A DNA stretch of 64,000 bases, from positions 67,095 to 131,094 of the forward strand of contig DGPZ01000195.1 in NCBI GenBank assembly GCA_002390675.1. The letters run 5' to 3'. This stretch comes from Deltaproteobacteria bacterium UBA4427. GTDB taxonomy: Bacteria > Myxococcota_A > UBA9160 > UBA4427. Of the stretch, positions 10,983 through 36,756 are shown one piece after another. Both the position numbers and the translations under genes were made by a program. The first letter of the stretch is position 1. Every line of letters starts with the position of its first letter. The notes below the pieces were generated by a model that saw nothing but the letters and a program-made list of their open reading frames with translations, was not told where the DNA came from and made no database searches.

Positions 10983-11008
10983 GTCGGTAAGATAGGGAAC
11001 CCTCGGGC

Positions 11009-12046: not shown

Positions 12047-12331
12047 GGTGGTGCTCCGGTAGTTTGGTCGTTGGGAAAGGCGCGGAAGAGTAACGAATCC
12101 ACGAGGCTGCGCGCGAGCAAGGTTTCGGTTCAGGCGAGGACATTAGGAAGCAGGTGCTCGCTGAAAAGAGAGAAGGTCTTTTCCACCAGGGGCATAGGCC
12201 TCTGCCGTGGGCCGACGCATAGCACGATTCGCGTATCGCTTCTTTCCGCGCGATCTCGTTAAAAGAAAAATTAGAGGACTCCGAATGGGCCATACTCGAC
12301 GGGGAAACATAGGAGAATCAGGAGTCGAGCA

Positions 12332-14664: not shown

Positions 14665-14695
14665 TCCGGTTGCGACGCGCCCGGCGTCGATTCTC

Positions 14696-15974: not shown

Positions 15975-16648
15975 CGATGCCTGATGCTTCCCCGATCTGG
16001 TTGACGATCAAACTCGCGAGCTTGACGACAGCGATTTTGTTCGTCGTTGGAACGCCACTGGCATGGTGGCTGGCGAGTACCAAGTCAAAACTCAGGCCTT
16101 TTGTGGAAGCCGTGACAGCCTTGCCCCTAGTACTCCCTCCGACCGTCTTGGGTTTCTATCTTTTGTTAGTTATGAGCCCTCACTCTCCCCTGGGCGCCTT
16201 TTGGGTGAAAGTCTCCGGCGAGACGCTGACCTTCTCATTTACGGGTCTGGTTTTTGCGTCGATTCTCTACTCGCTGCCGTTCATGGTGCAGCCGCTCACG
16301 AGTGCGTTCGAGGCTGTCGGAAGAGGGCCGATCGAAGCGGCGGCAAGTTTGGGGGCTTCGCCGGTCGATGCGTTCTTTCGAGTCGTGGCGCCGCTCTCCG
16401 CGCGTGGATTTGTTACGGCTGGCGTTCTGACCTTCGCCCACACCCTCGGCGAATTCGGCGTGGTGCTGATGGTTGGTGGGAATATCCCGGGCGAAACCCG
16501 CGTGCTGTCCATCGCGATCTACGACCATGTAGAAACGCTTCAATATGCGGAGGCGCACGCCTTGTCTGCTGGCCTGCTCGCCTTTTCTTTCATAGTTCTA
16601 CTACTCGTATACACCTTCGATCGAAAGGCGCGCGTACGTGTCGGATAG
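15971..16648 (+). CDS. modB: molybdate ABC transporter permease
   Basis: ABC permease EAA-like loop (EAAASLGASPVDAFFRVVAPL). ATGA overlap with modA. Confidence 0.9.
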   Translation: MTMPDASPIWLTIKLASLTTAILFVVGTPLAWWLASTKSKLRPFVEAVTALPLVLPPTVLGFYLLLVMSPHSPLGAFWVKVSGETLTFSFTGLVFASILYSLPFMVQPLTSAFEAVGRGPIEAAASLGASPVDAFFRVVAPLSARGFVTAGVLTFAHTLGEFGVVLMVGGNIPGETRVLSIAIYDHVETLQYAEAHALSAGLLAFSFIVLLLVYTFDRKARVRVG

Positions 16649-17783
16649 CGATCGCATCAAAAAGAGACAGGATGGTGAAGCGTTTGCGCTGAGTCTACGC
16701 GTCGTACTGGCCGAATTTACCCTCGAACTCGACGAAATTCTGACGCCGAGCGGTGTCACAGCAGTTTTTGGAAGAAGTGGGAGTGGGAAGACGACTCTTC
16801 TGCGCGCGATTGCTGGATTCGAGAAGCCCGTTCGAGGCCGTATCGCCTTAGGTGATCAGGTTTGGTTCGACGAGGAGGCCAAGATTTTTGAGCCCCCGAA
16901 TCGACGTTCGATTGGAATGCTCTTTCAGGACGTCCGACTCTTTCCGCACCTCGACGTACGCGCAAATCTAGACTTTGCGTGGAAGCGGCGAAATACGTGG
17001 ACGGCGAAGGCGGGAATGCAGCAGAACATCGCACGTGATGAAGTCATCGAGGCGCTCGACTTAGACATAATGCTAGGTCGAAACGTTACTTCGCTATCAG
17101 GTGGCGAGCAGCAGAGGGTCGCGCTGGCACGAACGCTGCTTACGAGCCCAGATATCCTCTTGCTTGACGAGCCTCTTGCGGCGTTGGATCGCGAGAGGAA
17201 GGCGGAGATTCTTCCCTATCTAGAAGACGTGACCCGGCGCTTTATGATTCCGACGCTCTTCGTGAGTCACGACCTTGACGAAGTGGCCCGCCTCGCGGAT
17301 CGAATGATGGTGCTTTCCGAAGGGCAGGTTCAGATGTACGGCGAGACAGCGGAGATTCTCGAACGTCTTGACCTTGAACCGATAGGGGGACGCTTTGAGG
17401 CCGGGGTGCTCGTCGAAGGAAAGGTTTTGCGCCACGACACGCGGCTTCATCTCACGACCGTCGATCTCGACGGCGATGCGCTCGCGATTCCATTGGCTGA
17501 AGATTCGTCGGTCGGAGATATATTGCGCCTGCGTGTTCGCGCGCGTGACGTGGCACTGGCGACGGAACGGCCCGCAGGACTCAGTATTCGAAACGTATTG
17601 CCGGGCGAGATCACAGACTTGATCCGCACCCCGGGAAGTGGTGAAGTCGAAGCCCGAGTGCAGCTCAGGTCCGCCCATATCCGTGCGCGCTTGACGTTGG
17701 CTGCGGTGGAAGAGCTCGGCCTCGCGCCGGGGCGACGCGTATTCGTGTTAGTGAAGAGCGTGAGTCTCGAAGGTGGTCGTTAG
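16638..17783 (+). CDS. modC: molybdenum ABC transporter ATP-binding protein with C-terminal TOBE/Mop domain
   Basis: Walker A GRSGSGKTTLL, signature LSGGEQQRVALAR, Walker B ILLLDEP, and a C-terminal TOBE-like repeat. Confidence 0.9.
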   Translation: MSDSDRIKKRQDGEAFALSLRVVLAEFTLELDEILTPSGVTAVFGRSGSGKTTLLRAIAGFEKPVRGRIALGDQVWFDEEAKIFEPPNRRSIGMLFQDVRLFPHLDVRANLDFAWKRRNTWTAKAGMQQNIARDEVIEALDLDIMLGRNVTSLSGGEQQRVALARTLLTSPDILLLDEPLAALDRERKAEILPYLEDVTRRFMIPTLFVSHDLDEVARLADRMMVLSEGQVQMYGETAEILERLDLEPIGGRFEAGVLVEGKVLRHDTRLHLTTVDLDGDALAIPLAEDSSVGDILRLRVRARDVALATERPAGLSIRNVLPGEITDLIRTPGSGEVEARVQLRSAHIRARLTLAAVEELGLAPGRRVFVLVKSVSLEGGR

Positions 17784-21197: not shown

Positions 21198-21382
21198 CGA
21201 TCACTCCTAGCGAGTCCCTTTGGAGGGCGCTCTTTGACTTTTCCTATCCGAGCATGACGCAATCGAAAGCTTCCCGCTTGGCCTGCATTTATCGGCTTCT
21301 GATACGGCGCGGCGCGCGAGGTGGGGCGGTTTTGGTGATGCGTTATGGTTGCGATCTAGATTCTGGGGGGATCGTTTTACGC

Positions 21383-22540
21383 ATGCAGGTTTTGAACCCA
21401 TTCCGCGCGCGAACAGCTCGAAACGGTTCGCCGTCACGCGGCCTCGCTGCGGCCATGCTCGTTTTCCTGTTGAGCATCAGCCTCGGCTGCTGGGGCCGAC
21501 TAGGACCCTCCACGGTTTCTTTGACGCGCACGGACTACAACGTGGCGGCGCAGGAGACGAGTGCACAGGAGCTGCTTCTGAACTTGGTTCGCCTTCGGTA
21601 TCGCGATACGCCGTACTTCCTTCAGATCGCTTCGCTCTCGACCAACATGCGGTGGCGCACCGGCATCGGCGGCGAAGGCAGCTTCCTCACGCGAGGAGCG
21701 GATTTTGGAGGCGTTAGTGCGGGCCTCAGTATCGAAGAGTCGCCGACGGTCACGTATACGCCGCTCGTGGGCGATCGCTTTGTGAGTCAGCTCCTCGAGC
21801 CCGTCGAGCCTGAAATCCTGGTTCTGCTTTCTCACGCAGGCTGGTCGATGGACCGTTTTCTGCGTCTCTTTGTGCAAGAGGTGGGAGGGGTTCCCAACGC
21901 GCCGACCGCTTCGGGGCCGACGCCGCGCGAAGAACCTGTATTCGAAGATTTCCAACGCGTGGCCGAGCTCTTTCGGACCCTGCAATCGGAGCGTCAGGTT
22001 TCCCTTGTGCGCGGCTCTCTACGTGGGCGATCCGCGACGACCGTCGTCCATTCTGCCGACGGAGTTCTGTTGCGCTTCACACAGGATGCTCTCGAAACCG
22101 AGGCATACCGCGAGCTGCGTGAGCGACTGGGACTGGAGCAAGGCCGACTGCTCTTCCAGCTCGTAACAGGAATCGGAGCGCGAGCTCCGGAGCGGATCAA
22201 TGTTGTTTTGCGCTCGGTGTTGTCCGCCATGTTCTACGCGTCGCACGGGATCTCGGTCCCCGAGGAAGACCTTGCAGCGGGCCGCGTGACCACGACCATC
22301 GCCAAGGACGGCGGCGTGTTCGATTGGAGTGAGGTCACGGGGTCGCTTCTCCGCGTGACTTCCAACGAGCTTGAATTCCCGGCCTACGCGAAGGTGGTGT
22401 ACCGCGGCCACGTGTTTTCGATCGACGATGGCGACCTCAATTCAAAGTCGACGTTTTCGATGTTAAACCTGGTGCTGGCTCTTCAAGCCGGGGAGCTTCC
22501 GGCGGGTGGGCCGATCTTAACCCTGCCCGTGTCTCAATGA
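21383..22540 (+). CDS. hypothetical lipoprotein
   Basis: Signal/lipobox AAMLVFLLSISLGC after ATG 21383 (the track start 21254 is probably too early). No recognisable domain. Confidence 0.6.
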   Translation: MQVLNPFRARTARNGSPSRGLAAAMLVFLLSISLGCWGRLGPSTVSLTRTDYNVAAQETSAQELLLNLVRLRYRDTPYFLQIASLSTNMRWRTGIGGEGSFLTRGADFGGVSAGLSIEESPTVTYTPLVGDRFVSQLLEPVEPEILVLLSHAGWSMDRFLRLFVQEVGGVPNAPTASGPTPREEPVFEDFQRVAELFRTLQSERQVSLVRGSLRGRSATTVVHSADGVLLRFTQDALETEAYRELRERLGLEQGRLLFQLVTGIGARAPERINVVLRSVLSAMFYASHGISVPEEDLAAGRVTTTIAKDGGVFDWSEVTGSLLRVTSNELEFPAYAKVVYRGHVFSIDDGDLNSKSTFSMLNLVLALQAGELPAGGPILTLPVSQ

Positions 22541-26922: not shown

Positions 26923-27630
26923 ATGATTCGATTCACCAAGGCCCTCGCGCTGGCCGCGACCCTCTTGGCCATACCGTCAATGGCATCCGCCCTAGGGATT
27001 GAACTGGTCGGCACAAATGGAAGTGGCGGTAGTGCTACTCTGGCCCCCGGCGGTACGATCACGTTCGACCTTCGCATGACCTTCACCGGAACGGAGCCCC
27101 AGATCTTCGGCCTCTCCGCCGACGTTACGGGTATGGACTTGGCGGACGCGACCGGCGTGCGCGACTTTGGCCTTCAACTTGCGGGCGGTACTTCCGTCAG
27201 TGAATCTCTTGGAACCGACCCGGCACCCGGAATTGTCCCCGTGCAAGGGGCGATCCAAAACAACAATGGTACGTCTCCAGTTGAACGATACAGCATTAAC
27301 CATCTCAGTCCGCAGGCCTATACAGTCAACATGTTCGACGGCATAACGGCCAGCGGCGCGGATGGCGACGGCTCCACCGACTACGGTATCGGTGGGACCT
27401 ACGTAACGGGTGGCGACATCCACTTTCAGGTCACGCTCCAAAACGTAGGTAACGGCTCCGCCGCTTCATCCCTCGCGAACCTGCAGTTCTCGCTTCTCGC
27501 TTTGGACTTCCAGGGCGGCACGATCGCCGCAACTGGTGACACCTTCGCGCTGACGGTCATCCCGGAGCCGGGCACCGCCCTGCTCATGGGTCTCGGTCTC
27601 GCTGGCCTGGCCACGGTTCGCCGACGCTAG
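26923..27630 (+). CDS. PEP-CTERM sorting-domain secreted protein
   Basis: N-terminal signal peptide. C terminus VIPEPGTALLMGLGLAGLATVRRR is a PEP motif plus TM plus basic tail. Confidence 0.85.
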   Translation: MIRFTKALALAATLLAIPSMASALGIELVGTNGSGGSATLAPGGTITFDLRMTFTGTEPQIFGLSADVTGMDLADATGVRDFGLQLAGGTSVSESLGTDPAPGIVPVQGAIQNNNGTSPVERYSINHLSPQAYTVNMFDGITASGADGDGSTDYGIGGTYVTGGDIHFQVTLQNVGNGSAASSLANLQFSLLALDFQGGTIAATGDTFALTVIPEPGTALLMGLGLAGLATVRRR

Positions 27631-27712
27631 ACCTGACTGGCACGGCAGACGGGCACGGGATCCATTTCGGCTTCTGTAACTGTAATAGAGCCCGAGCCCG
27701 TCAAAAAACGAA

Positions 27713-27742
27713 GGGCCGCTTTCTCGCAAGAGAAAGCGGCCC
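27713..27742. terminator. bidirectional intrinsic terminator hairpin
   Basis: GGGCCGCTTTCTC-GCAA-GAGAAAGCGGCCC forms a 13-bp perfect stem. It is followed by TTTCGCGTTT on the + strand and TTCGTTTTTT on the - strand. It lies between the convergent PEP-CTERM and UGSC genes. Confidence 0.75.
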
Positions 27743-27835
27743 TTTCGCGTTTGGGGCTTCGGGCAGTCCGGGGCGCTGCCACGGGAGTTCCGGGGCTGCT
27801 CAGGAATTTTGGTTTTGGGCGGGGGCGAGGGCGAA

Positions 27836-28363
27836 CTAACGCAGCTGTTCGAGGATCGCGTCCAATGCCGCGTCTGCCCATGAATCCAGGGTTGCGCCGG
27901 GTGTGCCGCCGATCGGGTGCGGGACGATGATTCGGCGCGCATCAGGAAAGAGTAGCTCCCTCGCCATCTGATCTGCGAGATCGCGAAAGGCTTCGCTCGC
28001 GACGACGACGGTGGCTACGCCTCGGGCTTCAAGGGATTTGGTGTCGTGGAGACTCCACGACGTGCAGCTCCCTCAATCCGCGGTACCCGTAAGGACGACC
28101 TCGACTTCTTTGGCGAGGCGATCGATTAGCTCGGTCTCACAGGGCGTGGCGGCGGTCTGCTTGCGGAAGCAGCCAACGTAAATTCCATCCGTCTTCTTGG
28201 CGAGCTCTACGCCCATCCTGCCTAATAGGTGATCCGCGCCTGCCTTCCCGTTGTCGAGGACGCCAATACGAAGACCTACGAGCTCTTTGATAGAGGTTCG
28301 CGGCGTGCATTCGAGGAGTGCGTCCGTATGTCCCTCGGGAGAGTAGATCAAGGTTGACGACAT
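27836..28363 (-). CDS. UGSC-motif selenoprotein candidate (175 aa, Sec at codon 97 encoded by in-frame TGA 28075..28073)
   Basis: Track ORF 28073..28489 stops at a TGA. Codon-by-codon translation shows the frame stays open 78 more codons to TAG 27838..27836. The context is VVLTGTAD-U-GSCTSWSLHD. A stem-loop lies 11 nt downstream, and a paralog at 49978..50541 has the TGA at the same aligned position. ATG 28363 (MSSTLIYSPEGH) is the preferred start. Confidence 0.8.
28043..28061 (-). promoter_or_regulatory. SECIS-like stem-loop downstream of UGA (locus 1)
   Basis: The mRNA reads UGA-GGGAGCUGCAC-GUCGUGGA-GUC-UCCACGAC: an 8-bp stem and a GU-containing apical loop, starting 11 nt after the UGA. 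Confidence 0.55.
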
Positions 28364-28431
28364 GCTTTGGTCTCTTTCTTCGCCCACGCGCCGGGTGCCG
28401 ATGCCCGGGACGGGGAGGATGTAGCGCCCTG

Positions 28432-29553
28432 TTAGGGCTCTAGGGGCAGAGTGGCGCTTTCGGTCATGCCCCAGCTCGGCATTACGCAAGAGTGTTTTCC
28501 AGCACCGCCTACAACCATCACTTTGATGAGGTCGCGATCGCGCATGATCGGCTTCATGCCGTCATCCGGGAGCGCATCTTCCCATTCAGCGTATTGAGTG
28601 ACTTCGAAGGCGCGCCGGAATCGCGACATGGGAAGCCGCGCGTGTTCGAAGAGAAAATCCTGCACGTCTTTTCGTGAAAAGCCGCCGGCTGCGATTGCCT
28701 CGGCGTGCTCGGGGCCGAGAAAGACGAACCATTCGGCACTCGAGACCGGAGCATTATTCGAGCCAAGGGTCAGCATCGTGCTCGCGATTTGCTCGAGCGT
28801 ATGAATCGGCGAGCGAACATCGTGATCCTGGACGTTATGCGGATTCTCACCGCAAGCGACGGTGACAGCGCTCGGCGCTCGAAGGCCAAGGCTTTCCGGA
28901 TAGCTTTCCCAGGGGCTCTCGGCGCAATTCTCGGCGGCGCAGTAGCTGTATTTCGAGGGCTGTCCTTGAGTGGCGGCATCGCCGGCTCCTGGGCGCGCGC
29001 CCGCGATGTTCATGAGGACGAGTCTAAGCGCTCGGCCGACGGAGGCATTCGCGCGACAGCCGGGGCCGAAGGCGCCTAGCCCGGCATTGAAGCCGAGCTC
29101 GTCCGTCGCGGCGCCATGAACCAGGATGAGCGGAGCCACCGGATGAGTCGTCGCGTTGATGCCGCGAAGATTGATTTCCGGGAAGGCGAGTCCGCGGACG
29201 GCGGTCGTGAGAACTGGGAGCATGTTGGGGCGACAGCCAGCCATTACGGCGTTGACTGCGAGGAGTCGTCGCGTGACGAGTCCGCCGCGGGGCGGCAGGA
29301 CTGCGACGACTGCATCAGGATCAATCTGCCGGGGCAGTTTTTCGAGGAAGGCTTCGACCCGAGCCTCGGTCGGAGGCACGAGGGGAAGGCCGTCCCCCCA
29401 GCCCCGTGTGTCGGCGAGATCCATCCACGCCTCGAAATCACCTTCGGGAATTTTAACGTCCGGCGAGACCCGCGCCGATTCGAAGGATTCGAGAGTCGCA
29501 CCCGGGAGGGCGCAAACGTCGTCCTCACATTCGATTTCGACCGAATCGGCCAT
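28432..29553 (-). CDS. uncharacterised conserved protein, partner of the UGSC gene (paralog of 50588..51589)
   Basis: 373 aa from ATG 29553 (AAGGAGA RBS; the track start is 29580). Shares the blocks WGDGLPLVPPT, AVMAGCRP and GPGCRANASVGRALRLV with the 333-aa protein at 50588..51589. I could not assign a domain. Confidence 0.8.
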   Translation of the reverse strand: MADSVEIECEDDVCALPGATLESFESARVSPDVKIPEGDFEAWMDLADTRGWGDGLPLVPPTEARVEAFLEKLPRQIDPDAVVAVLPPRGGLVTRRLLAVNAVMAGCRPNMLPVLTTAVRGLAFPEINLRGINATTHPVAPLILVHGAATDELGFNAGLGAFGPGCRANASVGRALRLVLMNIAGARPGAGDAATQGQPSKYSYCAAENCAESPWESYPESLGLRAPSAVTVACGENPHNVQDHDVRSPIHTLEQIASTMLTLGSNNAPVSSAEWFVFLGPEHAEAIAAGGFSRKDVQDFLFEHARLPMSRFRRAFEVTQYAEWEDALPDDGMKPIMRDRDLIKVMVVGGAGKHSCVMPSWGMTESATLPLEP

Positions 29554-29585
29554 GCCATCTCCTTGGTCGACTATGTGCATGCGGA

Positions 29586-29677: not shown

Positions 29678-30883
29678 TCAGTCGAGTGTGCGGAACGCGT
29701 TCGTGTGGGTGTCCTTCGGAAACTCGTCGGGCGCGAGCGGCACGCTCAGTTCGTCCCAAGTCGGTCCGCACTTGTCCGAGATTGGCTTGAGGGCTTCGAG
29801 ATCGAAGTCATAGAGCTTGGCGGCATTTAGCCCGAGCATCGCTCGCGTATCGTCCTCGCCGCAGGTGTTGAACGTGTGCCGCAACGCCAAGCGCGTATCG
29901 GGGTAGGTGCCTTCGTAGTGGGGATAATCGCTGCCCCAGAGAATACGCTCTGTGCCGATCACGTCGCGATCCTTGAGCTCCGGCGGGGACGCCGAACTCG
30001 CGCCGTAGTAGCAGTTCTGCTTTGCGTAGAAGCTCGGCGGCTCGGGCGTCGTGACACCCTCAGCGAATTGGAACTCGCCGACCGCGCCTGAAGAGATGCG
30101 CTTCCAGGCCATGTCGAGGCGCTGCAGGGTTTCCGGTACCCAGGCGCACCCGGACTCGGTGATGATGTACTTGAGCTTCGGGAAGCGGTGGAAGACGCCG
30201 GACAGAAGTAACTGGCTATAGCTTCGGGTTGAGAAGAAGCCGGTTTCGATCAGCCGAATCGGAAGGGAGACGGGAAGGCGTCCGTAGTCTGGGGAGCCTG
30301 TGCCGCCGTGGTGATTCACGACGAGGCCCGTCTCTTCGAGAAGCGCCCACATAGGGTCGTAGTCCGGGTGATAGAGCGGCTTGATGTAGCCCGTGCAGTC
30401 GTCGGGAACGTGCGGGAGCAGGACACCGCCGCGCAAGTTGTTCTTGGCGATCCACTCGATGTCTTTAATCGCTTCGTCGATGTCGTTCAGATAGACGAGG
30501 CCGATGCCGGCGCGCTGGGCTGGAAATTCGCCGCACCATTCGCTGAGCCATCTGTTATGCGCGCGAATACCTTCGAGGCGCATCAAATAGTCTTCGGGGC
30601 GAGGGTTGCCGCAGATGAGCACGCTCGAGCGGAAGAAGGGCGGAACAGTATTCGGAAAGACGATCTCGCCGACGACGCCTTCTGTCTGCATGTCGCTCAT
30701 GCGCTCGGCATCGTCCCAGTTCTTGTGCTTCTTGGATCCGATGTGCTTCTTCTGCGGGTTCTTGTACGAACCTCGCCACTCGTCGAAGAGCGCCTGGTGT
30801 TTGGTGTCGAGGTATTCGCGGTAGCCCGCGACGGAGTTGCCGGCGTGGGTGTCGGAGGAAATGACGATGATCGGATCGCTCAT
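29678..30883 (-). CDS. amidohydrolase-2 family metal-dependent hydrolase/decarboxylase
   Basis: MSDPIIVISSDTHAG provides the HxH-type metal motif region, followed by WGSDYPHYEG. The start was trimmed from 31060 to ATG 30883. Confidence 0.85.
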   Translation of the reverse strand: MSDPIIVISSDTHAGNSVAGYREYLDTKHQALFDEWRGSYKNPQKKHIGSKKHKNWDDAERMSDMQTEGVVGEIVFPNTVPPFFRSSVLICGNPRPEDYLMRLEGIRAHNRWLSEWCGEFPAQRAGIGLVYLNDIDEAIKDIEWIAKNNLRGGVLLPHVPDDCTGYIKPLYHPDYDPMWALLEETGLVVNHHGGTGSPDYGRLPVSLPIRLIETGFFSTRSYSQLLLSGVFHRFPKLKYIITESGCAWVPETLQRLDMAWKRISSGAVGEFQFAEGVTTPEPPSFYAKQNCYYGASSASPPELKDRDVIGTERILWGSDYPHYEGTYPDTRLALRHTFNTCGEDDTRAMLGLNAAKLYDFDLEALKPISDKCGPTWDELSVPLAPDEFPKDTHTNAFRTLD

Positions 30884-31198
30884 GAAATGCCTTTCGTTTC
30901 GTATGGAGGCGCTTGCGGGTGAGTTCGAAGAGTTCCTTCGAATGATGGCGGGTGCTCTCGGATGCACCCGACACACCGGCGTTTGGGATGGCCCTGCCGG
31001 GGCTGATCCGCAATCGGCTCGGCCGATTGTGTCAAATTCAGAGCATTTAGTCAGCTCCAATCATGTCATTCGCAGGAGAGAAAAATGCGCCATTTGGAGT
31101 CCTTCGCGAAGCGATTCTCTAGGCTGGCGCGATCGCTCTGGGCCAGCGAACCTACGCTCCAGCTGACCCTCTTCTCAATCCCAAAAGGACCCGACAAA

Positions 31199-31645
31199 AT
31201 GGCCACTTTCGCCGAAGTACCTTGGATCGCAAAGCACATCGAGCTCTATCGCACAGACCCGGAGAAGGCGCATATGTGGGATTCGGCGGAGGCCGGGGGC
31301 GAGGGAATGCTGCCCACGCTTCTGATCACGACGACTGGACGAAAGAGTGGCGAGCCAAGGTCGATTCCATTGATCTACAAAGCGATCGACGGCAATTACG
31401 TGATCATCGCCTCGAAGGGGGGCATGCCGAACCACCCGATCTGGTTCCTAAACCTCGAAGCGAATCCCGCTTGCGAATTGATGGTTGGGGCGAAGCCCGT
31501 CTCTGCTCGTGCGCGGATCGCCGAGGGCGACGAGCGCGAACGACTTTGGGCAGAACTCCAAGAAATCTATCCGCCCTACGCGGCTTACAAGGTGAGCGCG
31601 GGGGATCGGGTGATTCCCGTCGTGGTCCTCGAGCCTGTCGAATAG
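31199..31645 (+). CDS. nitroreductase-family deazaflavin-dependent oxidoreductase (DUF385-like)
   Basis: 148 aa. TTGRKSGEPRSIPLIY...ASKGGMPNHPIWFLNLEANP is typical of the DUF385/PNPOx-like split barrel. The start was trimmed to ATG 31199. Confidence 0.75.
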   Translation: MATFAEVPWIAKHIELYRTDPEKAHMWDSAEAGGEGMLPTLLITTTGRKSGEPRSIPLIYKAIDGNYVIIASKGGMPNHPIWFLNLEANPACELMVGAKPVSARARIAEGDERERLWAELQEIYPPYAAYKVSAGDRVIPVVVLEPVE

Positions 31646-31699
31646 CAGCCTAACAGGTACGCGGTTGCCGAGCACCACGCTCGTACCGTCCCTTTACTG

Positions 31700-32626
31700 C
31701 TAAGAGAACGCGTCGGACGCGGCTGTGAGTCCGAGAAATGCAACCGTGTCTTCGATTGCATTTCCGGCATCGCAGCCCGCGACGCGCCTGAAATTTCGTG
31801 CGCCTTCGGACGGAGGACATGCGTCGCGCGCGTGCTGGACGCCGAGGTTGTCCCATATAACCAAGTCGCCCACTTCCCATTGGTGGACGTATTCGTTCTC
31901 AGGGACATACAAATATTCGTCGAAGATTCTCGTGAGCATCGCCCGACTTTTCGGATCGCCGCGCTCTTCGTCCGAGAGTTCCATGATGCGTTCTGTCTGT
32001 TGCAGCGTACACACAAGAGTCTTGTAGTCGCGGCGCTTCGGGTGTGAGCGAACCATTGGCCAGATGTGGCTTTGCGTTGGCGCCGCCGGATCCGTTCGGC
32101 CTTCGAAGGCCGGGCGAGCGTCGGGTTTCATGGCGGCCAGATCATGGGCGCAAAAGATCGTGTAGGCCTCGATCTGGGCCCTGAGTGCCCGCGGCATTAT
32201 TTTGAGAGGCCGCGCGTTGTCATAGAAACGCGTCGTCGTTCCATTCTGTGGGACGTCGACAGCGAAGAGCGAAATCACGTCTGCCGGAAAGGGCGTGTAG
32301 GTGTAGTCCATATGCGGCGTGAGAGGGCCCTCGCGGTAGCCCTCGGTCATGCTGTCGACCCCGTGGCCATCTTGATTAGACACGAAGGAATGCTGATCCC
32401 CGGGGAGGCGCTCTTCGATCACCTTCGCAAAACCCTCGACGAATGCGACCTGGGCTTCCGTGGTGAGTGCATTTTGATCCCCGAAGACGAGGATCGGATG
32501 TTGTTGCCACGCAGCCTCGATCTGTGTGTCGACTTGCTTCTCGAGGCTGCCCGCCAGCTCTGAGGCCAGATCAATGCCATGTATTCGAGCGGCGATGCCG
32601 TTCGTGAGGGGCTCTATCTCGATCAT
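31700..32626 (-). CDS. TauD/TfdA-family Fe(II)/2-oxoglutarate dioxygenase
   Basis: 308 aa. HMDYTYTPFPADVISLFAVDVPQNGTTTRF and IWDNLGVQHAR. Confidence 0.8.
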   Translation of the reverse strand: MIEIEPLTNGIAARIHGIDLASELAGSLEKQVDTQIEAAWQQHPILVFGDQNALTTEAQVAFVEGFAKVIEERLPGDQHSFVSNQDGHGVDSMTEGYREGPLTPHMDYTYTPFPADVISLFAVDVPQNGTTTRFYDNARPLKIMPRALRAQIEAYTIFCAHDLAAMKPDARPAFEGRTDPAAPTQSHIWPMVRSHPKRRDYKTLVCTLQQTERIMELSDEERGDPKSRAMLTRIFDEYLYVPENEYVHQWEVGDLVIWDNLGVQHARDACPPSEGARNFRRVAGCDAGNAIEDTVAFLGLTAASDAFS

Positions 32627-32651
32627 TCCGTTTCCCTCTCACTCGACCCTG

Positions 32652-33989
32652 TTAGGCAGGTCCGCCAGTTATTTCGCTGGGCTCGATTCCTAAGTAGTGC
32701 TCGAGATTTCTGTGAGTATTCACGACACGCGCTTCTTCGCAGGACAAGCTGATATGTGTGAGGCCCGGCTGGTTTACGCCGCGCTGCGCATTTTTAAGAA
32801 TATCGACGTCCTGGTTGAGCACGAAGCCAAAGCCAGCTTGATCCGCAGGCATATCGAGATCGAAGGGTCTCGCCCTCGGAACATCTTTGATCTCTCTCTC
32901 GAAACTCATCCCGATCAACTCCGAAGTGTCAGCGGTCGCGCCGGGGCGTGCGGATAACACTTGGAGTAGGTCTGCGGAGATGAGGACCGTGAGGTTCGGG
33001 AAGATGTTGTATTGATGGAGGAGCAACATCTCATGATTGCTAAAGCCCGAGAGATCGATTCCCTTCTCATCCTTTTGGTAGGCGCGAATTCGTTCGCCGA
33101 TCACGTCGACCATGGTCTCGCCTTCGGCGGGCATAGGCGCCGGGCAACTTTCCGTAATCCCCATTCTCTCACCCTGGGTGACGATGAACGAGTCCCAGAT
33201 CAGTTGATTGTCACTCTTAATGAGACGTGGGCTGGCAACGCCGTAGAGCTGTCGAGAGACGCCGGTACGGCCCCATATTTCCTGCCCGGAGTTGATGTCA
33301 TCAATCGATCCGAGCATTTCGCGATGCAAGGTCTGGACGTGGTAGGTCTCAGAAAAACTGTCGGCGACGAGTTTCCAATTGGCCGGCATCTCAGTTCGAA
33401 TCTTTGCATAACAACGAAAGTCATCGACTTTGAGAGCCTTTGCATCTTGCGGAACCACCTCTAGGAACTCGGAGAGGGTCATCGCTTCGGGATCGAGGTT
33501 CACGAAAACGATCGGTCCCCAGGTGTCGACTTGGACGGGGGTGAGGCCGAGCTCGGATTTGTCGACGTTCTCGCCAAGGCCCTTATGTGAGGGCATCCCT
33601 GTGAGCTGACCCCGTAAATCGTACATCCAGCCGTGATAGGGACATCGGAGATGTTTGAGTCCCTGAGCCGACCCGCTGCAGAGAGCGATTCCGCGGTGTT
33701 TGCAGGCGTTTTGGAACGCGCGTAGCTCTCCGTCGCGGCCCCGGACGACGAGCACTGAGTAGCGGCCTATCCGCACTTCGTAGAGATCGCCGGGCGCAGC
33801 GACATGGTCGATACTGCACGCGACGATCCACGCTTTCTGCCACACATGCTCGTGTTCGCGTTCGGCGAAGGCTTCGCTGCGATAGCGGTCCGCGGGAATT
33901 CGAAAGGGGGTTCCCTGTGAATTTCCGACTGAGCTAATTGCGGTTCCGAGAAGATCTTCCCGGGTACCACCGACATCGGCCAGGCTCAT
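32652..33989 (-). CDS. aromatic ring-hydroxylating (Rieske 2Fe-2S) oxygenase, alpha subunit
   Basis: Rieske motif CKHRGIALC...CPYHGW. The C-terminal catalytic domain carries SETYHVQTLH. Confidence 0.9.
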   Translation of the reverse strand: MSLADVGGTREDLLGTAISSVGNSQGTPFRIPADRYRSEAFAEREHEHVWQKAWIVACSIDHVAAPGDLYEVRIGRYSVLVVRGRDGELRAFQNACKHRGIALCSGSAQGLKHLRCPYHGWMYDLRGQLTGMPSHKGLGENVDKSELGLTPVQVDTWGPIVFVNLDPEAMTLSEFLEVVPQDAKALKVDDFRCYAKIRTEMPANWKLVADSFSETYHVQTLHREMLGSIDDINSGQEIWGRTGVSRQLYGVASPRLIKSDNQLIWDSFIVTQGERMGITESCPAPMPAEGETMVDVIGERIRAYQKDEKGIDLSGFSNHEMLLLHQYNIFPNLTVLISADLLQVLSARPGATADTSELIGMSFEREIKDVPRARPFDLDMPADQAGFGFVLNQDVDILKNAQRGVNQPGLTHISLSCEEARVVNTHRNLEHYLGIEPSEITGGPA

Positions 33990-34052
33990 GGCATTTCCTT
34001 TGCTGCTTGGGGCTGGATTTTGTTAGGGGGTCGCGTGTGGGCGAGCCCAGCC

Positions 34053-34799
34053 TTAGGTCGTGACGTTGCCGCCATTCAGCTGCAGCGTTTGGCCAGTCAT
34101 CCACTTGGCTTCATCTGAGGCGAGGTAGACGACAAGGGCCGCGATGTCTTCGGGTTGTCCGAGTGCACCGACGGGAACTGTCTTCGCCATATGGGCCGTG
34201 ATTTCGGGCTCGGAATGATTGTCGATGAGGCCGATCGCAATCGTATTCGCAGTGACGCCCGTCTTTGCGACTTCCATCGCAAGATGGCGCATGAAGGCGA
34301 TGCCGCCGCCCTTGCCTGCGCCATAGGCGGAGATGCCAAGAGGAATGCCAACTGTTCCAGCACCGGAGGAAATCGTTATGATTCGCCCCTTGCCGCGGTT
34401 GCACATCCCGTCGACAACGGCATGCACGCAGTTCATCACGCCGTAGGTGTTAAGGTCGATGAAGGGGCGCCAGTCTGCGGGCTTTGTGTCACGAAATTGT
34501 GTCACGCCCATGTCGGGCGGCACGCCTGCGTTATTGACTAAAATATCGAGTGGGCCGAGGGTCGCTTCGGCACGGGCGATTCCTGCGACAGTCGCTTCAT
34601 AATCACAGACATCGAAAGCGGCTGTGACGGCTTTGCCGCCGGCCGCCTCGATTGCGGCGACGGTTTCTGCTGCACGCTCCTCGCGAAGATCATTGATTGC
34701 CACACTCGCACCGAGATCTGCGAGTGCGCGAGCGATTCCTGCTCCAACGCCTTGGCCGGCGCCCGTAATCAGGGCCGATCGGCCCGTGAGATCGAACAT
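34053..34799 (-). CDS. SDR-family oxidoreductase (FabG-like)
   Basis: TGAGQGVGAG, NNAG, and YGAGKGGGIAFMRHLA. Confidence 0.9.
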   Translation of the reverse strand: MFDLTGRSALITGAGQGVGAGIARALADLGASVAINDLREERAAETVAAIEAAGGKAVTAAFDVCDYEATVAGIARAEATLGPLDILVNNAGVPPDMGVTQFRDTKPADWRPFIDLNTYGVMNCVHAVVDGMCNRGKGRIITISSGAGTVGIPLGISAYGAGKGGGIAFMRHLAMEVAKTGVTANTIAIGLIDNHSEPEITAHMAKTVPVGALGQPEDIAALVVYLASDEAKWMTGQTLQLNGGNVTT

Positions 34800-34940
34800 G
34801 TCATGCCTCCTAGTCTAGAGTCTAAACGCTAACCAATTGCTCGGGCGTCCGCGTCGGCCACGGCAGAGTCCGTTGGGCGATCGCGAACACTCATTTCGAC
34901 TCGCGTTTGCGCAATGCGGGTGAGGTAAGGAACGGAAACG

Positions 34941-35804
34941 ATGCGAATCGGAATCTCGCTACCCGTACGAGAGCTTGCGAATGACCTCGGGGCGATCCGA
35001 GAATTTGCGGAGGCCGCGGACGACCTGGGGCTCGCGCATCTCCGCGTGCCGGATCTCGTGATGCGGCCAAAGAGTGGCCATTTGCATGAGCCGATGACGT
35101 TGCTTTCTTGGGTTGCGGGATTCACGAAACAGATCGAGCTTGTTCCTTCAGTGATTGTCCTGCCATCGCGTCAGACGCCACTCTTTGCGAAGCAGGCGGC
35201 GGAGCTCGACTTGCTCTCCGGTGGGCGTGTTCGAATCGGTGTAGGGGTCGGAGGGAGTCGTGAGGAATATCAGGTCCAGGGCCACGACTATCATCAGCGA
35301 GGCGCACGATGTGATGAACAGATCGACCTCTTACGGGCGCTTTGGACGGAAGAGGCGCCGATATTCGAAGGCCGCTTCGATTCCGTCTCGGGTTTCGGTC
35401 TCGATCCGCTCCCGATCCAGCGCCCCATTCCGATTTGGGTCGGCGGGGGCTCGGGCTTCATGAAGGAGCGCTCGAAGGACGCTTTGCTGCGTCGAATAGG
35501 GGAACGCTCGGATGGATGGTTCGCGGTTGTTCCGATTGAATCGACCTTCGCGATGCGAGAAAAAATTGAAGGCTATGCCCGCGCTATTAATCGCGATCCC
35601 GACGTCATTGGGATGGAAGGCGGCTGCGGCATGGCTGGGAAGTCGACGAAAGAGTGGTTGGGGCGGCTGCGCGATTGGGAATCTGCCGGCGCCTCCCATC
35701 TTTGTCTGCGCACCCTGGGCGGGGCGCTTTCCGCTCGCGAACAGCTCGATCTGATGCAGGACGCACATAGGACACTGGGTCTCGAAGGGATTCGCTGCAC
35801 CTGA
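34941..35804 (+). CDS. LLM-class F420/flavin-dependent oxidoreductase
   Basis: 287 aa. Luciferase-like pattern (RVRIGVGVGGSREEY, PIWVGGGS). Confidence 0.8.
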   Translation: MRIGISLPVRELANDLGAIREFAEAADDLGLAHLRVPDLVMRPKSGHLHEPMTLLSWVAGFTKQIELVPSVIVLPSRQTPLFAKQAAELDLLSGGRVRIGVGVGGSREEYQVQGHDYHQRGARCDEQIDLLRALWTEEAPIFEGRFDSVSGFGLDPLPIQRPIPIWVGGGSGFMKERSKDALLRRIGERSDGWFAVVPIESTFAMREKIEGYARAINRDPDVIGMEGGCGMAGKSTKEWLGRLRDWESAGASHLCLRTLGGALSAREQLDLMQDAHRTLGLEGIRCT

Positions 35805-35860
35805 GGGCGAACTTCTGGAGATGGATCCTGCGCGCGCGCGGGTGTATACCTGAAGAACTC

Positions 35861-35885
35861 GGCCGCACGATTTTCTAGTGCGGCC
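35861..35885 (+). terminator. stem-loop between the LLM and SDR genes (possible terminator/attenuator)
   Basis: GGCCGCAC-(9 nt)-GTGCGGCC forms an 8-bp stem. It is followed by TCTCT and then the RBS AGGAGG of the next gene. The U-tract is weak. Confidence 0.35.
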
Positions 35886-35904
35886 TCTCTAGGAGGACGG
35901 ATGA

Positions 35905-36756
35905 ATGGGTCGATGTGAAGGCAAGGTGGCTCTAGTTACGGGCGCGAGCCGCGGAATTGGAAAAGCAATCGCACAGCGGTTGGTTTCAGAAGGGGCTTCG
36001 GTCATCGTAAACGCTTCGCGAATGGGCGCGCACGGGCCACTGCCCGGAACGCTTGAAGCAGTCGCTGCAGATATTCAGGCGGCAGGGGGCGGGGCCGCAG
36101 CGATCGCATGTGATCTCGCAGACCCGGTGGCGCGTGAAGGGTTAGTTGAGCGCGCGAGCGAATTTTTCGGACCGATCGACATCCTCGTGAATAACGCCGC
36201 CTCAGGGATCATGAAACTCCCGAGTCAAACGACGAACGCCGACCGCTCCTTCATGTTCGAGCTGAATGTGAATGCCCCGGTCGACCTGGCACAGCAATGC
36301 ATTCCCGCCATGAAAGAAAACGGCGGGGGGTGGATTCTGAATATCGGCAGCGCGACGTCGTCGCAGCCTGAAATCCCGTACCGCGATTCGAAGATGTCTG
36401 CCTGGGTCATCGGCGCGTACGGTGCGACGAAAGCTGCGCTCGATCGCTACACGGAAGCCCTGGCGCACGAAGTCCAGGAGCACGAAATCTTCGTGAATTG
36501 CATGATGCCCACTTCAATCGTACTCACGAGCGGCGCCGACTATGTGAGAGATATCGCACGCAAAAACCCCGATTGGGTCGAGCCGGTCGAGATGATGGCG
36601 GAGGGAGCGCTGGAACTCTGTAGCGGTCGCCACGTGGGACGCGTGATCGCGAGTCGCGACATCGTTCATTATGCGGCTCGCAAAGTTCATAGCCTCGACG
36701 GCAAGGAAGTGCTGGGAGACGCGTTCTTGGCTGCGGATGTCGAATCGACTGCGTGA
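35905..36756 (+). CDS. SDR-family oxidoreductase
   Basis: TGASRGIGKA, NNAA, and YGATKAALDRY. Confidence 0.85.
   Translation: MGRCEGKVALVTGASRGIGKAIAQRLVSEGASVIVNASRMGAHGPLPGTLEAVAADIQAAGGGAAAIACDLADPVAREGLVERASEFFGPIDILVNNAASGIMKLPSQTTNADRSFMFELNVNAPVDLAQQCIPAMKENGGGWILNIGSATSSQPEIPYRDSKMSAWVIGAYGATKAALDRYTEALAHEVQEHEIFVNCMMPTSIVLTSGADYVRDIARKNPDWVEPVEMMAEGALELCSGRHVGRVIASRDIVHYAARKVHSLDGKEVLGDAFLAADVESTA

What the first reader, a model, noticed from the sequence alone, without database searches (positions are those of the whole stretch)
27836..28363. In-frame TGA in a U-G-S-C motif: probable selenoprotein truncated by standard ORF calling (locus 1)
The track ORF 28073..28489 stops at TGA 28075..28073. 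I translated every downstream codon, and the same frame stays open for 78 more codons to TAG 27838..27836. The product reads ...EVEVVLTGTAD-[TGA]-GSCTSWSLHDTKSLEARGVATVVVASEAF...PHPIGGTPGATLDSWADAALDAILEQLR. A beta-strand followed by UxxC and a helix is the classic context of a redox-active Sec/Cys pair. The strong bidirectional terminator follows the TAG, not the TGA. A paralog 22 kb away carries a TGA at the same aligned column (GFGG-U-GSC), which argues strongly against a random nonsense mutation. I recall 'UGSC family (seleno)protein' as an existing family label with no assigned function, but I cannot verify that here.
Basis: partly seen in the sequence, partly recalled or inferred. Interest (0 to 1): 0.85.

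Follow-up and report, generated by a model that had tools for sequence, protein, structure and literature searches.

The report
UGSC selenoprotein with an obligate partner
The in-frame TGA is a real selenocysteine codon in a member of the already-described but functionally unknown "UGSC" selenoprotein family, and this gene almost always sits next to, or is fused to, a large unnamed partner gene that offers a way to study its function.

Summary
A minus-strand gene (ATG 28363 to TAG 27836, 175 codons) carries an in-frame TGA at 28075..28073. ORF callers cut it there, and all 57 public copies of this ORF are truncated.

It belongs to a known family: Pfam PF24696 and NCBIfam NF041046, "UGSC family (seleno)protein", reported since 2007-2008 with no function assigned.

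Evidence that the TGA encodes selenocysteine (Sec):
- All 7 orthologous contigs keep the TGA.
- The 78 codons after it are under purifying selection (29 synonymous vs 4 nonsynonymous codon differences).
- All 114 full-length homologues have Cys at that column.
- A SECIS (Sec-insertion) hairpin with loop G23-U24 is present in 51 of 51 Sec forms and 0 of 57 Cys forms, and it shows compensatory base changes.

- Each UGSC gene lies beside a roughly 350-aa protein that has no Pfam, NCBIfam or PDB match. This holds for 157 of 163 UGSC genes. Fusions in both orders exist. The partner family has about 6,800 clusters at 50% identity.
- The predicted fold is flavodoxin-like, not thioredoxin-like. There is weak sequence similarity to the Sec region of glycine-reductase selenoprotein B.
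- Some loci carry trxB/trxA or a NifU-like CxxC protein; locus 2 has the latter.

Inferred mechanism: a thiol-recycled, two-subunit reductase. Its substrate is unknown. The Sec-insertion machinery could not be checked for this genome.

The parts
27836..28363 (-). UGSC1: full selenoprotein gene, 175 codons plus TAG stop, Sec at codon 97 and resolving Cys at codon 100
   Evidence: Translation. PF24696 E=4e-39. NF041046 scores 125 bits. Orthologues read through the TGA. Purifying selection acts after the TGA.
28073..28075 (-). UGA codon read as selenocysteine (U97)
   Evidence: The codon is TGA in 7 of 7 orthologous contigs. Cys occupies this column in 114 of 114 full-length homologues.
28043..28061 (-). 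Core SECIS hairpin, GUCGUGGA-GUC-UCCACGAC. It spans positions 15-33 counted from the U of UGA. Loop G23/U24 lie at 28053/28052.
   Evidence: Fold of -21.9 kcal/mol, z=-2.6. Across 18 diverse Sec forms, 96.5% of cells are paired and 4 of 8 pairs show compensatory changes; 0 of 500 shuffles reach this. GU loop in 51/51 Sec forms against 0/57 Cys forms.
27711..27744 (-). Intrinsic terminator after the true stop. It is shared with the convergent PEP-CTERM gene.
   Evidence: 15-bp stem with 9 GC pairs and a T-run.
28432..29553 (-). Partner 1: a 373-aa protein of an unnamed family, 68 nt upstream of UGSC1 on the same strand (alternative start at 29580)
   Evidence: No Pfam, NCBIfam or PDB sequence match. 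It is 35% identical to partner 2. A partner is adjacent to UGSC in 157 of 163 cases. AF2 model pLDDT 83.
29678..31060 (-). Amidohydro_2 gene. The Amidohydro_2-partner-UGSC order is conserved in close relatives and recurs in some distant loci.
   Evidence: Synteny in L001-L007 and L168. tblastn hits in about 14 other loci. Natrinema carries an amidohydrolase beside the pair.
49978..50541 (-). UGSC2: paralogous selenoprotein gene, Sec in GFGG-U-GSC, stop TGA 49980..49978
   Evidence: PF24696 E=5.5e-38. NF041046 scores 86 bits, below its cutoff of 125.
50227..50229 (-). UGA/Sec codon of UGSC2
50199..50213 (-). SECIS hairpin of UGSC2 (CGCGC-AGUUU-GCGCG), with G23/U24 at 50207/50206
   Evidence: Centroid fold. 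It lies in register with locus 1, and pairs 19-29 and 21-27 are changed on both sides relative to locus 1. The global MFE is not significant.
50588..51589 (-). Partner 2: a 333-aa paralogue of partner 1, 46 nt upstream of UGSC2
   Evidence: BLASTP E=5e-48, 35% identity to partner 1. No family hit.
49674..49919 (-). 81-aa NifU-like CxxC protein (…NEECAECVMEPE…) directly after UGSC2. Its stop overlaps the start of the SDR gene.
   Evidence: The same domain is fused to the C-terminus of Cys-type UGSC proteins. Pfam NifU gives only E=0.03. A local HMM finds the domain in 36 of 178 loci.
48880..49677 (-). Short-chain dehydrogenase (SDR), last gene of the locus-2 string
   Evidence: SDR genes also flank the pair in Variovorax, Halalkalicoccus and Paracoccus.

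Best explanation
Both loci encode true selenoproteins of the UGSC family.

Shown:
- The ribosome reads UGA 28075..28073 (and 50229..50227) as selenocysteine. A SECIS hairpin starting 14 nt after the U of UGA presents G23-U24 in its loop, as in the E. coli fdhF element.
- Translation then continues for 78 (82) more codons and yields a 175-aa (187-aa) protein.
- That protein is predicted to adopt a five-stranded flavodoxin-like alpha/beta fold.
- Sec97 sits at the end of strand 3, and Cys100 sits in the first turn of the following helix.
- The gene is the second half of a conserved module. A roughly 350-aa protein of an unnamed family, with near-invariant Cys107, Cys205, Asp54, Glu208, Arg174 and His283, is encoded immediately beside it or fused to it.

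Inferred, at about 45% likelihood:
- The two proteins form one enzyme. It works like the substrate-specific 'protein B' of glycine/sarcosine/betaine/D-proline reductases.
- The partner would bind and activate a small organic-acid substrate.
- Sec97 would attack the substrate and reduce it, and Cys100 would resolve the adduct into a Se-S bond.
- That bond would be re-reduced by thioredoxin and thioredoxin reductase, or by a dedicated NifU-like CxxC protein such as the 81-aa ORF at 49674..49919.
- The substrate is unknown.
For: Identity and recoding:
- Family HMM hits.
- Cys at the column in 114/114 full-length homologues.
- TGA and the open frame conserved in 7 orthologous contigs.
- 29 synonymous against 4 nonsynonymous codon differences after the TGA.
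- 90 TGA forms against 66 Cys forms among 163 UGSC genes fetched. The ratio is 34:4 when loci were fetched through the partner gene, which does not bias the codon.
- SECIS helix 96.5% paired, 4 of 8 pairs with compensatory changes, 0/500 shuffles reaching this.
- 51/51 Sec forms have all or nearly all 8 pairs and encode the serine at positions 22-24 as AGU. In 57 Cys forms the mean is 4.75 of 8 pairs and the serine is never AGU.
- TGA is otherwise a normal stop in the window.

Module:
- The partner is adjacent on the same strand in 79/80 genome loci, in about 70/80 partner-seeded metagenome loci and in 157/163 UGSC genes overall.
- Among 150 partner-family representatives there are 42 UGSC-partner fusions, 4 partner-UGSC fusions and 3 partner-NifU-like fusions.
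- Both window loci carry the pair.

Mechanism:
- 36 of 44 UGSC members hit GrdB, and 18-26 hit GrdF, GrdH or the general selenoprotein-B model. The best E-value is 1.7e-5, and no other family recurs.
- For the window protein, residues 63-152 match positions 313-397 of the 435-position GrdH profile. The Sec lies within that stretch.
- Operons trxB-trxA-partner-UGSC in Arthrobacter and partner-UGSC-trxB in Roseovarius, and trxB close by in Variovorax. trxB is adjacent in 7 of 178 loci.
- The NifU-like CxxC domain is fused or adjacent in 36 loci.
- Neighbours include TRAP/TTT carboxylate transporters, CoA-transferases, SDRs and LysR regulators.
- From my own knowledge, classical grd operons also carry trxB-trxA.
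Against: - No selA, selB, selD or tRNA-Sec lies in the window. The rest of the genome could not be searched.
- The locus-2 hairpin is not significant by global folding energy.
- Similarity to selenoprotein B is weak and far below the curated cutoffs (14.5 bits against 300). Pfam's GRDB model does not recur among the 44 members.
- The partner shows no detectable similarity to GrdE/PrdA or to any known family.
- The partner's structural matches are poor, with TM about 0.25 to class I fumarate hydratase and cyanuric acid hydrolase.
- No GrdA, GrdC or GrdD was seen among the neighbours scanned.
- trxB and the NifU-like gene are absent from most loci, including locus 1.
- Some fused UGSC domains have lost both redox residues, so redox chemistry is not universal in the wider family.
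- No physical interaction, selenium incorporation or activity has been measured.
Confidence: 0.8

Rival explanations
1. The partner-UGSC pair is an iron-sulfur or other metal-dependent enzyme. The partner would resemble Fe-S hydro-lyases. The U/C-x-x-C motif and the partner's two cysteines would ligate a cluster or metal, and the NifU-like protein would deliver the cluster. It would not be a thiol/selenol redox-cycling reductase.
For: The only PDB fold matches of the partner with E below 0.01 are class I (Fe-S) fumarate hydratases and Toblerone-fold hydrolases. A NifU/Nfu-like CxxC domain recurs as a fusion or neighbour. An aconitase-X gene lies near the fused form in Sporomusa.
Against: The fold matches have TM about 0.25 and RMSD above 12 A, so they are not a real global match. 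Only two cysteines are near-invariant in the partner. The NifU assignment is itself weak, E=0.03. Dedicated trxB/trxA genes fit disulfide exchange better. Sec is not known to me as a routine Fe-S ligand.
Confidence: 0.12
2. UGSC is a stand-alone thioredoxin-like antioxidant or thiol-disulfide oxidoreductase, as selenoproteome surveys have assumed. The neighbouring gene would be functionally unrelated.
For: The UxxC motif sits at a helix N-terminus. [quoted passage not shown]
Against: The AF2 model (pLDDT 92) is a five-stranded parallel flavodoxin-like fold. The top PDB matches are flavodoxin, WrbA and flavodiiron domains, not thioredoxins. Adjacency in 157 of 163 genes and 49 fusion proteins among 150 representatives argue against an unrelated neighbour. 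Gene contexts are catabolic, not stress-related.
Confidence: 0.05
3. The TGA is decoded by something other than Sec (near-cognate Trp/Cys read-through), or it simply terminates. In the latter case the gene is a pseudogene or makes a 96-aa fragment.
For: The Sec machinery has not been seen for this genome. Every public annotation stops at the TGA.
Against: The TGA is conserved across orthologues that differ at about 36% of codons. The downstream frame is under purifying selection. The hairpin and the AGU serine codon are specific to TGA forms. The 96-aa fragment would end in the middle of the fold. In Paracoccus ferrooxidans a TGA-form UGSC lies 3.3 kb from selB.
Confidence: 0.03

Closest known systems
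UGSC family (seleno)protein (NCBIfam NF041046; Pfam PF24696; 'UGSC-containing protein' of Zhang & Gladyshev 2007/2008)
   Same: Full-length HMM match, the U-G-S-C motif, a size of about 175-180 aa, Sec forms outnumbering Cys forms, and occurrence in aquatic bacteria. Both window genes are members by Pfam.
   Different: Nothing essential differs; this is the family. The papers I could read give no function, no partner gene and no domain assignment, and they guess a Trx-like fold. Here the fold is predicted to be flavodoxin-like, and an obligate partner is documented. Locus 2 scores below the NCBIfam equivalog cutoff (86 bits against 125).
Selenoprotein B of glycine/sarcosine/betaine/D-proline reductases (GrdB, GrdF, GrdH, PrdB)
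   Same: A UxxC Sec motif. Weak but recurrent profile similarity over the Sec-bearing region (36 of 44 members, best E=1.7e-5). A second, larger subunit is encoded alongside. trxB-trxA sit in the same operon in some loci.
   Different: Scores lie far below the family cutoffs. UGSC is only the roughly 150-aa Sec-bearing region as a separate protein. The partner is unrelated in sequence to the pyruvoyl proenzymes GrdE/PrdA. No GrdA/GrdC/GrdD were found. Hosts include aerobic Myxococcota, Acidimicrobiia, Alphaproteobacteria and haloarchaea rather than amino-acid-fermenting anaerobes.
E. coli fdhF-type bacterial SECIS element
   Same: A hairpin immediately 3' of UGA inside the coding sequence, with G23 and U24 (counted from the U of UGA) in the apical loop. 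The fdhF numbering is from my own knowledge.
   Different: The stem sequence is specific to the family and is built from the codons for T-S-W-S-x-H-D. The predicted apical loop is 3-5 nt. No bulged U17 is evident. There is no Rfam model for it.

Membership tests
UGSC family (seleno)protein (PF24696 / NF041046) | Profile HMM score at or above the curated cutoff | tested here: met
   Locus 1: Pfam 134.8 bits (cutoff 25) and NCBIfam 125 bits (cutoff 125, borderline). Locus 2: Pfam 131.2 bits, which passes, and NCBIfam 86.4 bits, which is below its cutoff.
UGSC family (seleno)protein (PF24696 / NF041046) | U/C-G-S-C motif at the conserved column | tested here: met
   TAD-U-GSC at locus 1 and GGG-U-GSC at locus 2. 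Homologues carry G[SAT]AD-C-GSCT.
Bacterial selenoprotein (SelB/SECIS-dependent UGA recoding) | In-frame UGA conserved in orthologues, with a coding signal downstream | tested here: met
   7 of 7 orthologous contigs keep the TGA. 29 synonymous against 4 nonsynonymous codon differences after it.
Bacterial selenoprotein (SelB/SECIS-dependent UGA recoding) | Cys-containing homologues at the Sec column | tested here: met
   114 of 114 full-length homologues. 66 Cys forms among the fetched loci.
Bacterial selenoprotein (SelB/SECIS-dependent UGA recoding) | SECIS hairpin 3' of the UGA with a conserved G(U) in the apical loop | tested here: met
   Helix at positions 15-22/26-33, with covariation. The G23U24 loop is invariant in 51 Sec forms and absent in 57 Cys forms.
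Bacterial selenoprotein (SelB/SECIS-dependent UGA recoding) | selA, selB, selD and tRNA-Sec present in the same genome | not testable with these tools
   None is in the window. Indirect support only: selB lies 3.3 kb from a TGA-form UGSC in Paracoccus ferrooxidans.
Bacterial selenoprotein (SelB/SECIS-dependent UGA recoding) | Selenium physically present in the protein | not testable with these tools
   This needs 75Se labelling or mass spectrometry.
Glycine/betaine/sarcosine/D-proline reductase selenoprotein B (GrdB/GrdF/GrdH/PrdB) | Profile score at or above the curated cutoff | tested here: not met
   PrdB 14.5 bits against 300, and GrdH 11.2 bits against 775. Only weak recurrent hits were seen. 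Pfam GRDB does not recur.
Glycine/betaine/sarcosine/D-proline reductase selenoprotein B (GrdB/GrdF/GrdH/PrdB) | Paired with a pyruvoyl proenzyme subunit (GrdE/PrdA, Pfam Gly_reductase) | tested here: not met
   The partner has no Pfam or NCBIfam hit, even at E up to 5-10.
Glycine/betaine/sarcosine/D-proline reductase selenoprotein B (GrdB/GrdF/GrdH/PrdB) | Thioredoxin system encoded in the operon | tested here: inconclusive
   Present in Arthrobacter, Roseovarius and Variovorax and in 4 metagenome loci, 7 of 178 in all. Absent at both window loci.
Thioredoxin-fold oxidoreductases | Thioredoxin fold | tested here: not met
   The AF2 model of a 48%-identical Cys homologue (pLDDT 92) has five parallel beta-alpha units. 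Foldseek top hits are flavodoxin, WrbA and flavodiiron domains, with TM 0.45-0.51.

The most novel reading that the evidence does not exclude
UGSC and its unnamed partner together form a widespread, uncharacterised selenium- or thiol-dependent two-subunit reductase of aerobic heterotrophs. Hosts include marine Myxococcota, Acidimicrobiia, Roseobacters, Paracoccus and haloarchaea. The enzyme would be mechanistically analogous to 'protein B' of the clostridial glycine and proline reductases. It would be built on a partner fold with no solved relative, and it would act on a still-unknown organic-acid substrate. [quoted passage not shown]
Probability: 0.4. Interest if true: 0.7.

Novelty: new member of a known kind. 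Interest (0 to 1): 0.4.

Why it matters
The gene itself adds nothing new. It is a mis-annotated member of a selenoprotein family known since 2007-2008.

The context is what makes it useful. UGSC was the fifth most abundant selenoprotein family in the Global Ocean Sampling data, with 255 Sec forms against 21 Cys forms. A 2026 review still lists it among uncharacterised selenoproteins.

Three findings make its function testable:
- It is almost never encoded without a specific, unnamed partner of about 350 aa, and it is often fused to that partner.
- Some operons add trxB/trxA or a NifU-like CxxC protein.
- Cys-type versions exist in culturable strains (Arthrobacter, Roseovarius, Variovorax, Paracoccus, haloarchaea).

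This turns an open question into co-expression, pull-down and knockout experiments.

On the practical side, every public copy of this ORF that I examined is truncated at the TGA. In Paracoccus ferrooxidans the gene is split into two 'hypothetical proteins'. The AGU-versus-AGC serine codon and the hairpin give a simple rule for correcting such annotations.

Tried and rejected
- **Rfam and tRNA scans of the window** found nothing. There is no Rfam model for this SECIS and no tRNA-Sec.
- **PDB sequence searches** with both proteins and both profiles returned only chance-level hits.
- **Testing the partner as the missing N-terminal part of GrdB, or as a GrdE/PrdA-like proenzyme:** no Pfam or NCBIfam signal for any of 34 members at E up to 1-5. 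The idea is not supported, but sequence methods cannot exclude it.
- **Foldseek of the partner model against the PDB:** the best hits (class I fumarate hydratase, cyanuric acid hydrolase) have TM about 0.25. I do not treat this as homology.
- **Pfam GRDB as independent support for the selenoprotein-B link:** it does not recur among the 44 UGSC members. That model may not cover the post-Sec region, which is my conjecture. The link rests on NCBIfam alone.
- **Figure S1A of the 2008 paper (UGSC/'Unknown_1' fusion)** is held only as an image. I could not tell whether 'Unknown_1' is the partner or the NifU-like domain.
- **P0196 (473 aa)** looked like a partner fusion. It is a MarR-like N-terminal extension or a start-site miscall.
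A 48%-identical Cys homologue was modelled instead.
- **A crude scan for other in-frame-TGA genes in the window** gave only off-frame artefacts apart from UGSC2. Its thresholds also missed locus 1, so it was not sensitive enough to exclude other selenoprotein genes.
- **Neighbourhood survey for a universal third gene:** none exists. Amidohydro_2, CoA-transferase, SDR, trxB and the NifU-like gene are each found in a minority of loci.
Full report
**1. The observation**

On the minus strand, the mechanically listed ORF 28073..28489 ends at TGA 28075..28073. The same frame runs on for 78 codons to TAG 27838..27836.

From the first ATG (28363) the conceptual product is 175 aa with the TGA at codon 97...EVEVVLTGTAD-U-GSCTSWSLHDTKSLEARG....

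A 15-bp-stem intrinsic terminator (27744..27711) follows the TAG. No terminator follows the TGA.

A second gene 22 kb away has TGA 50229..50227 in GFGG-U-GSC, followed by 82 more open codons. It is 28% identical to the first (E=1e-12).

**2. The TGA encodes an amino acid**

- The closest database homologues are 96- or 138-aa ORFs that end exactly at this column. I fetched their contigs (L001-L007; 63-96% protein identity). All seven carry TGA there and read on in frame for 78-80 codons with a conserved product.
- After the TGA, window versus L007 shows 29 synonymous and 4 nonsynonymous codon differences. Differences by codon position are 4/3/31. This is the same pattern as before the TGA.
- All 114 full-length homologues returned by the protein search have Cys at the aligned column, in the motif G[SAT]AD-C-GSCT.
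- TGA ends 15 of 45 other predicted genes in the window, so there is no genome-wide reassignment.

**3. The SECIS element**

At locus 1 the RNA directly after the UGA folds into GUCGUGGA-GUC-UCCACGAC. This spans positions 15-33 counted from the U of UGA, with -21.9 kcal/mol and z=-2.6. G23 and U24 lie in the apical loop. From my own knowledge, these are the same positions as the SelB-contacting bases of E. coli fdhF.

Locus 2 has a shorter hairpin in the same register (CGCGC-AGUUU-GCGCG). It is not significant by global energy.

Across 18 diverse TGA forms the 8-bp helix is 96.5% paired. Four pairs carry changes on both sides, and 0 of 500 column shuffles reach the observed values. Sliding the 3' partner by 1-3 columns drops pairing to 19-49%.

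The best control is internal. Among unique sequences from all fetched loci, 51 of 51 TGA forms have G23U24 and a mean of 7.92 of 8 pairs. The 57 Cys forms have a mean of 4.75 of 8 pairs and never have GU at those positions. Their serine codon is AGC, UCG or UCC instead of AGU, even where the peptide TSWSVHD is the same. The hairpin therefore tracks the UGA, not the protein sequence.

**4. What it is**

Pfam PF24696 'UGSC family' (E=4e-39) and NCBIfam NF041046 'UGSC family (seleno)protein' (125 bits, at its cutoff) match locus 1 over its full length. Locus 2 passes Pfam but not the NCBIfam equivalog cutoff.

The family is in the literature:
- It was described as a selenoprotein of unknown function in Hyphomonas neptunium and in metagenomes (PMC1976440).
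- It was the fifth most abundant selenoprotein family in the GOS data, with 255 Sec and 21 Cys forms. It was said to have 'likely' a Trx-like fold and to occur fused to a domain called 'Unknown_1' (PMC2398784).
- A 2026 review still lists it among uncharacterised selenoproteins (PMC13188914).

So the finding is a correct rediscovery, and the gene is a new, mis-annotated member. All 57 members of its 90%-identity cluster are truncated ORFs. The cluster of the adjacent partner protein includes a member that NCBI names as from a Myxococcota MAG.

**5.

Directly upstream of each window UGSC gene, on the same strand, lies an ORF of 333-373 aa: 28432..29553 and 50588..51589. Neither has a Pfam or NCBIfam hit. 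The two are 35% identical to each other (E=5e-48).

*Adjacency.*
- In 80 genome loci found through UGSC (Acidimicrobiia, other Actinomycetota, Myxococcota, cultured Yinghuangia and Streptodolium), the partner lies immediately upstream in 79.
- In 80 metagenome loci found through the partner, UGSC lies adjacent on the same strand in about 70. It is downstream in the close clade and upstream in a more distant one. This seeding does not bias the Sec/Cys codon. Most of the remaining loci are cut by contig ends, and L111 is a real exception.
- Overall, 157 of 163 UGSC genes have the partner beside them. By codon they are 90 TGA, 66 Cys and 7 undetermined.

*Family size and fusions.* An exhaustive profile search finds 6,840 partner-family clusters (at 50% identity) at E<=1e-3. 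The best 150 include:
- 42 UGSC-partner fusions, many of them N-terminally cut at the Sec codon;
- 4 partner-UGSC fusions that end exactly at the Sec column;
- 3 partner-NifU-like fusions;
- 7 tandem partner duplications.

*Annotation and structure.*
- PGAP names the partner 'hypothetical protein'.
- Its AF2 model is confident (pLDDT 83, pTM 0.85) but has no real match in the PDB (best TM about 0.25).
- Over 164 sequences, Cys107 (158), Cys205 (156), Asp54, Glu208 (164 of 164), Arg174, Glu282 and His283 are near-invariant.

**6. Fold and distant relatives of UGSC**

A 48%-identical Cys homologue models with pLDDT 92 as five parallel beta-alpha units. The Sec/Cys residue sits between strand 3 and helix 3, and the second Cys sits in the first helical turn. 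Foldseek's best PDB matches are flavodoxin, WrbA and flavodiiron flavodoxin-like domains (TM 0.45-0.51), not thioredoxins.

When 44 members are scanned individually against NCBIfam:
- 36 hit glycine reductase selenoprotein B (best E=1.7e-5);
- 26 hit GrdF, 20 hit the general selenoprotein-B model, 18 hit GrdH and 4 hit PrdB;
- no other family recurs.

For the window protein, residues 63-152 align to positions 313-397 of the 435-position GrdH profile. That stretch brackets the Sec. From my own knowledge, the Sec of GrdB lies near residue 350.

This similarity is remote and far below the cutoffs, and Pfam's GRDB model does not recur. UGSC is therefore not a member of that family, but it probably shares its Sec-bearing domain.

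**7. Accessory redox genes and context**

At locus 2 an 81-aa ORF (49919..49674) follows UGSC2. It carries ...DGGQVRL...NEECAECVMEPE.... The same domain is fused to the C-terminus of Cys-type UGSC proteins (P0060, P0109, P0112 and Arthrobacter WP_054009256).

The domain resembles NifU only weakly (E=0.03, full model length). A local HMM finds it in 36 of 178 loci. It is near or fused in 30 of 66 Cys forms but only 6 of 90 Sec forms.

Annotated plasmids show these arrangements:
- trxB-trxA-partner-UGSC in Arthrobacter;
- partner-UGSC-trxB in Roseovarius;
- trxB two genes upstream of the pair in Variovorax.

trxB directly flanks the pair in four metagenome loci, which makes 7 of 178 loci overall.

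In Paracoccus ferrooxidans a TGA-form UGSC is annotated as two hypothetical proteins beside the partner, and selB lies 3.3 kb away.

Other neighbours vary:
- LysR regulators, TRAP/TTT transporters, CaiB-type CoA-transferases and SDRs;
- Amidohydro_2, which is conserved next to the pair in the window's close relatives and present in Natrinema.

The window itself is a catabolic island. It holds TauD genes, a Rieske oxygenase, a P450, luciferase-like monooxygenases and SDRs.

**8. Mechanism**

Shown: SECIS-dependent UGA recoding signals, family membership, the two-gene module and its fusions, and the predicted fold.

Inferred: the partner and UGSC form one enzyme, and Sec97/Cys100 cycle between a selenol/thiol state and a Se-S state. 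The oxidised pair would be re-reduced by thioredoxin or by a CxxC carrier. The chemistry would be analogous to protein B of glycine or proline reductase, with nucleophilic Sec attack on a bound substrate followed by resolution by the neighbouring Cys.

I put this mechanism at about 45%. The identity as a true UGSC selenoprotein within a two-protein unit I put at about 0.8-0.9.

A metal or Fe-S role is the main rival, at about 12%. A stand-alone Trx-like antioxidant, a pseudogene and non-Sec read-through are all unlikely, for the reasons given above.

Some fused family members have lost both redox residues. This suggests that the partner carries the core catalytic site and that the UGSC domain is a redox or structural module.

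**9. Verdict**

As a selenoprotein it is already known, so this is a new member of a known kind.

Its residual interest lies in three things:
- the near-universal pairing with an unnamed partner, which I did not find described in the literature I could search;
- the correction of the assumed fold;
- the accessory thioredoxin and CxxC genes.

Together these make the function of an abundant environmental selenoprotein experimentally approachable.

Not tested: the Sec machinery of this genome, selenium incorporation, any physical interaction between the two proteins, and the substrate.

Noticed in passing
window 49674..49919 (-): An unannotated 81-aa ORF with a CxxC motif (NEECAECVMEPE) lies between UGSC2 and the SDR gene. 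The same domain is fused to Cys-type UGSC proteins and to some partner proteins elsewhere. Its similarity to Pfam NifU is only weak (E=0.03).
   Followed up: yes
window 28432..29553 (-) and 50588..51589 (-): Two paralogous genes (35% identical) belong to a large family with no Pfam or NCBIfam model and no solved structure. The family has about 6,840 clusters at 50% identity. PGAP calls its members 'hypothetical protein'.
   Followed up: yes
L008-L170 (all fetched UGSC loci): The serine codon at positions 22-24 after the Sec/Cys codon is AGU in 51/51 TGA forms. It is AGC, UCG or UCC in 57/57 Cys forms. This gives a one-codon diagnostic for separating Sec from Cys members.
   Followed up: yes
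P0279, P0318, P0322, P0344, P0387 (UGSC-partner fusion proteins): Several natural fusions have lost both the Sec/Cys and the resolving Cys (for example ADIGAAMSW and AEIGGSLF). Part of the wider family therefore cannot use this redox pair.
   Followed up: partly
P0274, P0287, P0294, P0370, P0397, P0409: Proteins of about 710-740 aa consist of two or three tandem copies of the partner domain.
   Followed up: no
L170 5181..8543 (Actinomycetes chromosome OY970233.1): Two partner/UGSC cassettes lie back to back and are divergently transcribed. One has the order UGSC-partner and the other partner-UGSC. Multiple cassettes per genome appear common, as in this window.
   Followed up: no
L175 4360..4929 (Paracoccus ferrooxidans pFER4, CP038202.1): A TGA-form UGSC gene is annotated as two separate hypothetical proteins. 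selB lies 3.3 kb downstream, and DsrE, TusA and cysteine desulfurase genes lie upstream.
   Followed up: partly
L172 and L177 (Natrinema zhouii, Halalkalicoccus jeotgali plasmids): The UGSC-partner pair, in Cys form, also occurs in haloarchaea, next to CoA-transferase, amidohydrolase and Rieske genes. A phosphosulfolactate-synthase-like gene lies near the pair in both Natrinema and Arthrobacter.
   Followed up: partly
window 43838..45838 (-) and 14288..17783 (+): A tungsten-type aldehyde:ferredoxin oxidoreductase (AFOR) lies in the same window as an ABC importer with a molybdate/tungstate-type binding protein and a TOBE-domain ATPase.
   Followed up: no
window 26923..27630 (+): A PEP-CTERM-anchored protein converges on UGSC1 and shares its terminator region. 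This neighbour is conserved in the orthologous contigs (L002, L006, L007, L168).
   Followed up: no
window 57524..60772 (-), 56320..57378 (-), 21254..22540 (+): A 1082-aa protein has only weak matches to PVC-type haem-binding CxxCH and PQQ-dehydrogenase models. Two ORFs of 352 and 428 aa have no Pfam hit.
   Followed up: no
window 10275..13207 and 29678..36756: Dense catabolic gene content: two TauD-family dioxygenases, a Rieske oxygenase, a P450, two luciferase-like monooxygenases, an F420H2-quinone-reductase-like protein and several SDRs. A second Amidohydro_2 gene lies at 61800..62882.
   Followed up: no
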